64,000 nucleotides of DNA from Escherichia coli (GTDB lineage Bacteria > Pseudomonadota > Gammaproteobacteria > Enterobacterales > Enterobacteriaceae). The position numbers are program-made. The stretch lies in the NCBI RefSeq assembly GCF_044647545.1, contig NZ_CP172818.1. One strand, 5' to 3'. This document shows, piece after piece, positions 42,559-45,500 of the stretch; within the stretch, counting starts at the first letter, position 1, and the number at the start of each line of letters is the position of its first letter.

Positions 42559-45500
42559 TGAATGCGTCTGACAGCAAAACAGGTGACATGGCTGAAAGTT
42601 TGCCTGCATCTTGCCGGATTGTTGCCGTTTCTCTGGCTGGCCTGGGCGATCAATCACGGTGGACTGGGTGCCGATCCGGTGAAAGATATTCAGCATTTTA
42701 CCGGTCGCACTGCACTGAAATTTTTGCTGGCGACCTTGTTAATCACACCTCTGGCACGCTACGCAAAACAGCCGTTATTGATACGCACTCGCCGCCTGTT
42801 AGGCTTATGGTGCTTTGCCTGGGCGACACTGCATTTAACCAGTTACGCATTGCTGGAGCTGGGCGTGAATAATCTGGCGTTATTAGGTAAGGAGTTAATT
42901 ACCCGGCCTTATTTAACGTTAGGTATTATCAGCTGGGTAATTTTGCTTGCGTTAGCGTTCACTTCAACCCAGGCGATGCAGCGAAAACTCGGCAAACACT
43001 GGCAACAGTTGCATAACTTCGTCTATCTTGTCGCGATCCTGGCCCCAATACATTATTTGTGGTCAGTGAAGATTATTTCACCGCAGCCACTCATCTACGC
43101 TGGGCTGGCGGTACTGCTTTTAGCCTTACGGTATAAGAAGTTGCTTTCCCTTTTCAACCAGTTACGCAAGCAGGTTCACAACAAATTATCTCTATAACTT
43201 CATATTGCCAACAAAGTACGCGTTATCCCGGCCGGATGCGGCGCGAGCGCCCTATCCGGCCCACACAGATCGCATCAAGTTATGTTTCGTTTGTCATCAA
43301 CCTTTCATCACCAGAATAATTTATTTTATTTCAATAAGATAGGAAAATACACCTGAGAAAACTATGCTCTCGTTTCCTAAGAGTTATTGCATTTCGCCAT
43401 ATGTTACAATATAACATTATACATCATGTACATTAACTCTGGAGGAAACTGTTTTGGCGATTCGTCTTCATAAACTGGCTGTTGCTTTAGGCGTCTTTAT
43501 TGTTAGCGCTCCTGCCTTTTCGCATGGTCATCACTCACACGGCAAACCCTTAACAGAGGTCGAACAAAAAGCTGCTAATGGTGTTTTTGATGATACCAAT
43601 GTACAAAACCGAACGCTCAGTGACTGGGATGGAGTCTGGCAATCCGTTTATCCTTTACTGCAAAGTGGCAAACTTGACCCCGTCTTTCAGAAGAAAGCGG
43701 ATGCAGATAAAACCAAAACATTTGCTGAAATTAAAGATTATTATCGCAAAGGTTATGTGACAGATATCGAGATGATTGGCATTGAGGACGGCATTGTTGA
43801 ATTCCATAGACATAATGAAACAACATCCTGTAAATATGATTACGATGGATACAAAATACTCACCTATAAATCAGGCAAGAAAGGCGTTCGTTACTTATTC
43901 GAATGTAAAGATCCTGAAAGCAAAGCCCCTAAATATATTCAATTTAGCGATCATATAATTGCACCACGAAAATCATCTCATTTTCACATTTTTATGGGTA
44001 ATGATACCCAACAGTCTTTATTGAATGAAATGGAAAACTGGCCAACGTATTATCCATATCAGTTGAGTAGCAAAGAAGTGGTCGAGGAGATGATGTCTCA
44101 TTGATTTTTTGCGCTGACTTCAATTATTTAACAGAACAGTGCCTGGTAGTAACGACAATAATTTACCAAGACAAATAAATAAGACAAACTCAGACACGCT
44201 CATGCTTGAGACGTGTCTTTTTTATTAAAAAAACGAAAAACCACGCACAATGCTCCAATGTCTCCAGGAGCAAGTCATCTGTCATGGTAAAGCTAACCAG
44301 AAATATAGGTTAATTTTGGTATTTAAACCTTTTTTACTTGTTAGTATGATACAAAGGCTTTCAAAAAAGCTGGGAAATTCAACAACTCTTGGAAATTATG
44401 GACTTTGTCCCGCGGCTTTAATCTGACGGCCGCGTTCCTTTTTTGGCTCAATTATTGACCCCTTCTCTACGCAACTTCAGTTCCCGCCAGCAACTTTGCG
44501 GCAGTTTCATAGGATCAATGTCTAAAAGAATAATGGTGACCGATAAGAAAACGACTGAATAACTGTAGATTTTCGCTCGAAACCTTCCTGTCAGACCCAT
44601 AGCGAATCAAGTGCTGAATGTCACAGTATCGAACAGAAAACAGTGACGATCTAACCCTTCAAGAATATTCTACGATTGTTCTGTTTAGGAAAAGCAAGGC
44701 GGGAAGTCGGGAGATAAGTCATTGATAAAGTGGCGGAGAGAGGGGGATTTGAACCCCCGGTAGAGTTGCCCCTACTCCGGTTTTCGAGACCGGTCCGTTC
44801 AGCCGCTCCGGCATCTCTCCGTTCAGATGGTTGCCATGATGCCAGGAAATTTGGCATTTTAACAGTCCCTGTCCGTGCAATTTTGTTCAAGTGACGAGTT
44901 TGCGAGCAAAACGATGATTAAGTGGCCCTGGAAAGTACAAGAATCAGCACATCAAACTGCCCTTCCCTGGCAGGAAGCACTATCGATCCCCCTTTTAACG
45001 TGTCTGACGGAACAGGAACAAAGCAAATTAGTCACTCTTGCCGAACGTTTTTTACAGCAAAAACGGCTTGTTCCTTTACAGGGCTTTGAGCTGAATTCAT
45101 TAAGAAGCTGCCGGATAGCACTTCTATTTTGCCTGCCCGTTCTGGAGTTAGGACTGGAATGGCTGGATGGTTTTCATGAAGTCTTAATTTATCCTGCGCC
45201 ATTTGTGGTCGATGATGAATGGGAAGACGATATCGGTCTGGTGCATAACCAACGTATTGTTCAGTCAGGTCAGAGCTGGCAGCAAGGGCCTATCGTTTTG
45301 AACTGGTTGGATATACAAGATTCTTTTGATGCTTCTGGTTTTAACCTGATTATTCATGAAGTCGCTCATAAGCTGGACACCCGTAACGGCGATCGCGCCA
45401 GCGGAGTTCCCTTTATTCCGTTGCGTGAGGTTGCTGGCTGGGAACACGATCTTCATGCTGCAATGAACAACATTCAGGAAGAAATCGAGTTGGTTGGCGA

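What the first reader, a model, noticed from the sequence alone, without database searches (positions are those of the whole stretch)
44105..44730. No ORF where a cytochrome b561 gene (yodB) is expected between zinT and serU
The 626-bp interval between the zinT stop and tRNA-Ser has no ORF of 60 aa or more on either strand, and a terminator sits at 44192..44224. From memory of K-12 gene order, a ~176-aa cytochrome b561 homologue lies here. Its absence would be a small strain-specific deletion or lineage difference. Confidence is limited because it rests on recalled synteny.
Basis: partly seen in the sequence, partly recalled or inferred. Interest (0 to 1): 0.3.

Follow-up and report, generated by a model that had tools for sequence, protein, structure and literature searches.

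The report
Common yodB-less zinT–serU spacer
This E. coli strain has no yodB gene between zinT and the serU tRNA gene, but that is an ordinary, already known variant shared by about 42% of complete E. coli genomes, and probably the older state rather than a deletion in this strain.

Summary
Window 44105-44730 lies exactly between the zinT stop and serU. It has no ORF of 60 aa or more, and it starts with a real zinT terminator (44192-44227). K-12 does carry yodB at this position.

The absence is not strain-specific. Of 5,426 complete E. coli genomes, 3,114 have yodB and 2,304 have the same yodB-less spacer as the window. These include ST131, Nissle and ST648-type genomes.

Mapping shows 863 bp in K-12 (yodB plus flanks) where the window has 56 bp. 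This site sits between the zinT terminator and a 447-bp block that is 96% identical in both forms. A translated search finds no yodB remnant anywhere in the 64-kb window.

E. albertii also lacks yodB, and its spacer lines up with the yodB-less form. The terminator's T-run is intact in both but lost in K-12. The short form is therefore most likely ancestral, with yodB gained in the lineage leading to K-12, O157 and O111.

A published ST410 study already uses yodB presence or absence as a clone marker, so this is ordinary and known.

One oddity remains. The window carries a 23-for-65-bp replacement at 44228-44250 that was not found in any genome of the complete-genome set or in the metagenome contigs scanned.

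The parts
43454..44104 (+). zinT (metal-binding protein ZinT), the left boundary of the interval
   Evidence: 216-aa ORF. Annotated as zinT in every matching genome. 97.2% nucleotide identity to K-12 zinT.
44105..44191 (+). zinT 3' untranslated stretch of the yodB-less haplotype. It lines up with E. albertii but cannot be aligned to the first 92 bp after zinT in K-12.
   Evidence: Pairwise alignments and blastn of the window interval against the K-12 interval.
44192..44227 (+). zinT intrinsic terminator: stem-loop 44192-44218 followed by the T-run TTTTTTATT
   Evidence: RNA fold -15.3 kcal/mol, z -4.06, 0 of 200 shuffles as good. The K-12 form of the hairpin is 78% identical but is followed by GTATATTAAT, with no T-run. 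E. albertii keeps stem plus GTTTTATTAT.
44228..44283 (.). Short spacer at the site where K-12-type genomes carry 863 bp that include yodB. 44228-44250 is a 23-bp replacement private to this sequence, where near-identical genomes have 65 bp.
   Evidence: Breakpoint mapping. Comparison with NZ_AP022161.1. All 2,304 yodB-less genomes have the longer form. No exact match to the variant in metagenome contigs.
44284..44730 (.). 447-bp non-coding block shared by both haplotypes, lying on the 3' side of serU. No conserved ORF.
   Evidence: 96.2% ungapped identity to K-12. The small ORFs are either broken by a stop in K-12, accumulate only amino-acid-changing differences, or lose their start codon in E. 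albertii. No Pfam hit and no Rfam family other than tRNA.
44411..44447 (+). G+C-rich hairpin (7-bp stem, 10-nt loop) followed by TTCCTTTTTT, inside the shared block. Terminator-like, function unknown.
   Evidence: Fold (z only -1.8). Promoter-like site upstream at 44322-44350. A 91-nt candidate RNA folds no better than shuffles (z -1.4).
44731..44820 (-). serU, tRNA-Ser(CGA), the right boundary. A known integration site, unoccupied here.
   Evidence: ARAGORN and Rfam tRNA at 57 bits. In other genomes the match breaks inside the tRNA gene where islands or prophages sit (rows H9-H11 and H23-H28; PMC9729726).

Best explanation
The interval is the ordinary yodB-less form of the zinT-serU spacer, one of two common forms in E. 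coli. It holds the zinT 3' end with an intact intrinsic terminator, a short spacer, and a 447-bp non-coding block next to serU. K-12-type genomes carry an extra 863 bp at the short spacer, containing yodB with its own upstream and downstream sequence. The window-type form is most likely ancestral in Escherichia. In that case yodB, a CybB-like cytochrome b561, was gained in the lineage leading to K-12 (A), O111 (B1), O157:H7 (E) and ST410 (C). The two forms have since been exchanged between lineages by homologous recombination, together with the neighbouring asnT region. The consequence for this strain is that it lacks the YodB cytochrome b561, and that zinT transcription should stop at its own terminator. 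Shown here: the absence, the breakpoints, the frequencies, the alignment with E. albertii and the terminator difference. Inferred: the direction of the change (about 0.7), the phylogroup pattern (from strain names and my own knowledge of their phylogroups), and the role of recombination.
For: Presence and absence: yodB is found in 3,114 of 5,426 genomes and the window-type spacer in 2,304. The counts are complementary (sum 5,418; the locus is present in 5,422). Breakpoints: window 44284-44730 equals K-12 interval 996-1442 at 96.2%. The terminator hairpin 44191-44231 is homologous to K-12 interval 93-132. Between them K-12 has 863 bp and the window about 52-56 bp, depending on where the hairpin homology is taken to end. 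No YodB remnant by tblastn in the whole window. Outgroups: E. albertii has zinT and serU 567 bp apart with no yodB, and its spacer aligns with the short form from the zinT stop through the terminator and across the junction. Escherichia sp. MOD1-EC7003 also lacks yodB. None of about 78 other loci next to zinT homologues in other Enterobacterales encodes a YodB relative. Terminator: stem plus T-run is present in the window, other short-form genomes and E. albertii; K-12 keeps the stem but has lost the T-run exactly at the left junction. Foreign character of yodB: the E. coli protein cluster is 99% identical, and the next relatives are only 72-77% identical (Hafnia, Citrobacter, Salmonella). One of these, in Citrobacter portucalensis, lies in a prophage cargo position. 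Known strains: short form in ST131, Nissle (H25) and ST648-type genomes (PMC8694128); yodB in K-12, BLR(DE3), O157:H7 and O111. Exchange within a lineage: ST410 clone B5 lacks yodB and has the HPI, clone B4 is the reverse, and the HPI was 'likely introduced via recombination' (PMC10786849).
Against: Both forms carry sequence the other lacks: the first ~90 bp after zinT differ completely. The event is therefore a replacement, not a clean insertion, and no donor with a zinT-yodB adjacency was found. The G+C content of the yodB segment (41%) is no different from its surroundings (38-40%). Phylogroups were not computed here. Ten genomes carry yodB alleles only 90-95% identical to K-12; they were not examined and could mean yodB is older in E. 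coli than assumed.
Confidence: 0.8

Rival explanations
1. yodB is ancestral in E. coli and was deleted once in an ancestor of the B2/F-type lineages. The window inherited that old deletion.
For: Both forms share the terminator hairpin and the 447-bp block, so a deletion between them is mechanically possible. yodB relatives exist in other Enterobacterales.
Against: The short form's own sequence aligns with E. albertii on both sides of the junction, and E. albertii has no yodB. The terminator T-run is intact in the short form and in E. albertii but lost in K-12. No other genus has yodB next to zinT. No yodB fragments remain in the window.
Confidence: 0.17
2. A recent deletion of yodB specific to this strain.
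For: The window does carry one private change in the interval: 23 bp at 44228-44250 in place of 65 bp.
Against: 2,304 complete genomes have the same yodB-less arrangement. These include genomes with 1 mismatch and 1 gap over 28 kb upstream. The private change removes 42 bp of spacer, not a gene.
Confidence: 0.01
3. yodB is present but hidden by frameshifts or by an assembly error.
For: None beyond the unexplained local replacement at 44228-44250.
Against: tblastn with word size 2 and E up to 100 finds nothing beyond chance in the interval. Only about 52-56 bp occupy the place of K-12's 863 bp. Independent complete assemblies show the same arrangement.
Confidence: 0.01

Closest known systems
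yodB (b1974) locus of E. coli K-12 MG1655, zinT-yodB-serU
   Same: Same flanking genes, same order and orientation. Same terminator hairpin after zinT. Same 447-bp block next to serU at 96.2% identity.
   Different: The window has no yodB. About 56 bp stand where K-12 has 863 bp. The first ~90 bp after zinT are unrelated. The terminator T-run is present here and absent in K-12.
yodB-less zinT-serU spacer of ST131, ST648-type and similar E. coli (e.g. NZ_CP063774.1, NZ_CP033850.1, NZ_AP022161.1)
   Same: Same arrangement and breakpoints. 98.6-100% identity outside one short patch.
   Different: The window has 23 bp (44228-44250) plus one substitution where all of these genomes have 65 bp, so its interval is 626 bp rather than 669 bp. 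The closest relatives carry the yersiniabactin island after asnT and the window does not.
CybB, cytochrome b561 / superoxide:quinone oxidoreductase of E. coli (PDB 5OC0)
   Same: This is the closest solved relative of the missing protein YodB: E 1e-42 over the full length, same Pfam family PF01292.
   Different: It is a paralogue encoded elsewhere in the genome. Nothing related to it is encoded in the interval or in the 64-kb window. The function of YodB itself is not established.

Membership tests
yodB / prokaryotic cytochrome b561 gene (PF01292) in the interval | An ORF or degraded reading frame with detectable similarity to YodB | tested here: not met
   tblastn of K-12 YodB against the whole window: best E 0.11 (at 38879-39001), best in the interval E 1.6 over 12 aa. 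The interval ORFs have no Pfam hit.
yodB-less zinT-serU haplotype of E. coli | zinT and serU in K-12 order, with the short spacer in place of the 863-bp yodB segment and the same breakpoints | tested here: met
   Alignment with FDAARGOS_497, ST131 and K-12. Breakpoints. 2,304 genomes match window 44105-44300 over at least 80% of its length.
yodB-less zinT-serU haplotype of E. coli | Spacer of the usual length (about 238 bp for window 44105-44300, 669 bp for the whole interval) | tested here: not met
   The window is 42-43 bp shorter, through a 23-for-65-bp replacement not seen in any of the 2,304 genomes.
Strain-specific deletion | The arrangement is absent from close relatives and from other lineages | tested here: not met
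   The arrangement is shared by 42% of complete genomes and by genomes near-identical over 28 kb.
Rho-independent (intrinsic) terminator after zinT | Stable G+C-containing stem-loop immediately followed by a T-run on the coding strand | tested here: met
   Stem 44192-44218 at -15.3 kcal/mol, z -4.06, followed by TTTTTTATT. Actual termination was not measured.
Known small RNA families (Rfam 15) in the interval | A covariance-model match at or near the gathering score | tested here: not met
   Only tRNA reaches its threshold in 43000-46200. The sX4 hit (25.6 bits against a gathering score of 70) overlaps serU and is below threshold.
Island or prophage integrated at serU | Foreign DNA interrupting or abutting the 3' end of serU, with a partial tRNA repeat | tested here: not met
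   serU is intact and contiguous with the shared 447-bp block. No direct repeat of the tRNA end is present in the interval.

The most novel reading that the evidence does not exclude
Two readings are not excluded. First, the private 23-for-65-bp replacement just after the zinT terminator (44228-44250) may be a genuine mutation rather than an assembly artefact. Second, the low-variation stretch 44322-44447 (promoter-like site plus hairpin and T-run) may encode an unannotated, E. coli-specific small RNA of about 90 nt that exists whether or not yodB is present.
Probability: 0.08. Interest if true: 0.3.

Novelty: already known. Interest (0 to 1): 0.08.

Why it matters
It matters little. It illustrates that K-12 gene order is not the species norm: yodB is an accessory gene present in about 57% of complete E. 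coli genomes. Its absence marks lineages such as ST131, Nissle and ST648, and also the HPI-bearing ST410 B5 clone. The practical points are that this strain probably lacks the YodB cytochrome b561, and that its zinT has its own complete terminator. The probable direction of the change (a gain in the K-12 lineage) is a minor evolutionary footnote.

Tried and rejected
- **yodB remnant.** A translated search of the whole window found nothing.
- **Small proteins in the interval.** The five longest ORFs have no Pfam hit. They are broken or changed non-synonymously in K-12, or lose their start codon in E. albertii. Rejected.
- **Known sRNA.** The Rfam E-value scan found only tRNAs. A candidate 91-nt RNA folds no better than shuffles. 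A literature search found nothing.
- **Island footprint at serU.** No direct repeats of the tRNA end in the window or in K-12.
- **Phage origin of the K-12 segment.** The only phage-collection hits at meaningful identity are host flank in the 'SerU-LTIIb' record. The Citrobacter prophage homologue shares only the coding sequence. This stays a lead only.
- **The terminase next to zinT in strain W13-16 (H29).** This is a strain-specific truncated prophage joined at window ~44489 and is not relevant.
- **Other occurrences of the window's private variant.** None in 2,304 genomes, none in metagenome contigs, and no donor copy within the window.
- **Phylogroup reference genome.** UMN026 could not be fetched by accession because it is not in the collection.
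- **Genome-contig scan with ZinT.** It did not return E. coli itself, E. fergusonii or the named cryptic clades, so the outgroup sample is thin.
- **Divergence profile between the window and K-12.** Divergence is only mildly raised next to the indel. It is not decisive for an imported segment.

Full report
**What is at the coordinates**

The + strand ORF 43454-44104 is zinT (annotated as such in every matching genome). ARAGORN and Rfam place tRNA-Ser(CGA), serU, at 44731-44820 on the - strand. It is followed by mtfA, asnT (45812-45887) and yeeJ.

The longest ORF on either strand is 58 aa. That is not remarkable in itself: 61% of composition-matched shuffles of this 39% G+C stretch also lack an ORF of 60 aa or more.

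The stem 44192-44218 folds at -15.3 kcal/mol (z -4.1, no shuffle as good) and is followed by TTTTTTATT. The crude pattern scanner missed it.

**Is yodB expected here?**

In K-12, yes. In MG1655, yodB (531 bp, 176 aa, PF01292 at E 3e-22) lies between zinT and serU in a 1442-bp interval.

Mapping the two intervals onto each other gives three results:
- Window 44284-44730 equals the last 447 bp of the K-12 interval, ungapped, at 96.2% identity.
- The terminator hairpin (44191-44231) is homologous to K-12 interval 93-132 (78%).
- Between these two anchors K-12 has 863 bp, made up of yodB with 210 bp upstream and 122 bp downstream. The window has about 52-56 bp there.

The first ~90 bp after the zinT stop are unrelated in the two forms.

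A tblastn of YodB against all 64 kb, at word size 2 and E up to 100, finds nothing beyond chance. The best hit in the interval has E 1.6 over 12 residues. There is no remnant.

**How common is this?**

The yodB gene is found in 3,114 of 5,426 complete E. coli genomes, and 3,004 of those copies are at least 99% identical to K-12. The window's zinT-proximal 196 bp is found in 2,304 genomes. The two counts sum to 5,418, while the locus is detectable in 5,422. The two forms are therefore essentially mutually exclusive alternatives, and yodB is unlikely to sit elsewhere in short-form genomes.

Strains with the short form:
- ST131.
- Nissle (row H25).
- The window's nearest relatives, which include FUJ80154, an ST648 isolate (PMC8694128).

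Strains with yodB include K-12, BLR(DE3), O157:H7 and O111.

From my own knowledge of phylogroups, this puts B2 and F against A, B1 and E. I did not compute phylogroups.

The polymorphism is already in the literature. A study of ST410 reports that clone B5/H24RxC lacks yodB and carries the yersiniabactin island, while B4/H24RxC has yodB and no island. It uses yodB as a qPCR marker and attributes the island to recombination (PMC10786849). asnT, the island's insertion site, is only about 1 kb from serU. My inference is that co-transfer of the short spacer with the island is the natural explanation.

**Which state is older?**

I used ZinT to fetch 80 loci from one genome per species and searched them for YodB and serU.
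- Only contaminating E. coli contigs carry yodB next to zinT.
- E. albertii has zinT and serU 567 bp apart with no yodB. Its spacer aligns with the short form from the stop codon, through the terminator (TTTTATTATGT in both), and across the junction (CAGGAnCAAGTnATCTG). It does not align with K-12's zinT-proximal sequence.
- Escherichia sp. MOD1-EC7003 also lacks yodB. It has a larger deletion and foreign DNA inside serU.
- The zinT terminator keeps stem plus T-run in the short form and in E. albertii. In K-12 the stem is followed by GTATATTAAT, so the T-run is lost exactly at the left junction.

YodB itself looks like an import. The E. coli cluster is 99% identical, and the next relatives are only 72-77% identical, scattered in Hafnia, Citrobacter and Salmonella. 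The one context I examined, in Citrobacter portucalensis, is a prophage cargo position between the lysis genes and the HNH/terminase genes. Its homology to K-12 is confined to the coding sequence.

Together these favour the short form as ancestral and yodB as a gain in the K-12-type lineage, with a probability I put at about 0.7. Four caveats apply:
- The inference rests on two outgroup genomes only.
- The event is a replacement rather than a clean insertion.
- No donor with a zinT-yodB adjacency was found.
- The segment's G+C content (41%) is not distinctive.

**What else is in the interval?**

The 447-bp block is non-coding.
- The 39-aa + strand ORF has a stop codon in K-12.
- The 50-aa - strand ORF differs from K-12 at eight amino-acid positions.
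- The 35-aa ORF next to serU loses its ATG in E. albertii.
- None of the ORFs has a Pfam hit, and Rfam finds only tRNA.

Variable sites among eight E. coli sequences cluster at 44291-44306 and 44446-44596. Two quiet stretches remain, 44322-44445 and 44597-44730. The first holds a promoter-like site (44322-44350) and a hairpin with a T-run (44411-44447).

The case for an RNA gene there is weak:
- A 91-nt candidate RNA folds no better than shuffles (z -1.4).
- The segment 44345-44506 is missing in E. albertii.
- With only two haplotype classes, the quiet stretches may simply reflect recombination history.

I treat an RNA gene here as an unexcluded long shot. serU is unoccupied; other genomes have islands or prophages inserted in it (PMC9729726).

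**One unexplained detail**

The window's interval is 626 bp, whereas every other short-form genome has about 669 bp. Against NZ_AP022161.1, the window differs by one mismatch and one gap in the 28.2 kb upstream and by one mismatch in the 1.6 kb downstream. Yet window 44228-44250 (AAAAAACGAAAAACCACGCACAA) stands where that genome has 65 bp, and there is a T/G difference at 44254.
- None of the 2,304 short-form genomes has this variant.
- A 27-mer across it has no exact match in the metagenome contigs.
- There is no donor copy in the window.

I cannot tell a real private mutation from an assembly artefact. The change lies just after the terminator T-run and removes no gene.

**Verdict**

This is a common, known presence/absence polymorphism, not a strain-specific deletion, and the K-12 state is probably the derived one. 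Interest is low.

Noticed in passing
window 44228-44254: A private replacement: 23 bp plus one substitution stand where near-identical genomes (1 mismatch and 1 gap in 28 kb) and all 2,304 yodB-less complete genomes have 65 bp. No exact match in metagenome contigs and no donor copy in the window. Real mutation or assembly artefact is undecided.
   Followed up: partly
window 45812-46126: asnT is followed directly by yeeJ. Genomes about 100% identical over window 16000-45888 (ST648-type, e.g. NZ_AP022161.1) carry an integrase and the yersiniabactin high-pathogenicity island right after asnT. This strain therefore shares their flank but lacks the island.
   Followed up: partly
window 46126-52636: yeeJ (inverse autotransporter adhesin) is split into two ORFs, 46126-50661 (1511 aa) and 51059-52636 (525 aa). 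In K-12 it is a single 7,020-bp gene, so it is probably a pseudogene here.
   Followed up: no
window 44322-44447: A + strand promoter-like site (TTTAAA-17-TATGAT) and a G+C-rich hairpin with a T-run lie in a stretch with only one variable site among eight E. coli sequences. There is no Rfam hit and the fold z-score is only -1.4. Part of the stretch is absent in E. albertii.
   Followed up: partly
L085 4001-4540 (Citrobacter portucalensis JABVAY010000005.1): A YodB homologue (76% aa identity) lies in a prophage between the lysis cassette and the HNH/terminase genes, a typical cargo position. This hints that this cytochrome b561 lineage moves on phages.
   Followed up: partly
L088 13000-14736 (E. 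coli O139:H1 W13-16) and H186 (ETEC4075): In a few genomes the shared block ends at window ~44489 and abuts a truncated prophage (terminase large subunit). An IS3 element also sits upstream of zinT in W13-16.
   Followed up: partly
L005 4649-4830 (Escherichia sp. MOD1-EC7003): zinT is followed immediately by the last ~146 bp of the spacer and only the first 14 bp of serU, then unrelated DNA. This indicates a larger spacer deletion plus an element inserted in serU.
   Followed up: no
L039 and L080 (MAGs labelled Bacillota and Bacteroides): Contigs carrying E. coli zinT-yodB-serU at 96-100% identity sit in metagenome-assembled genomes assigned to unrelated phyla. This is probably binning contamination.
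   Followed up: no
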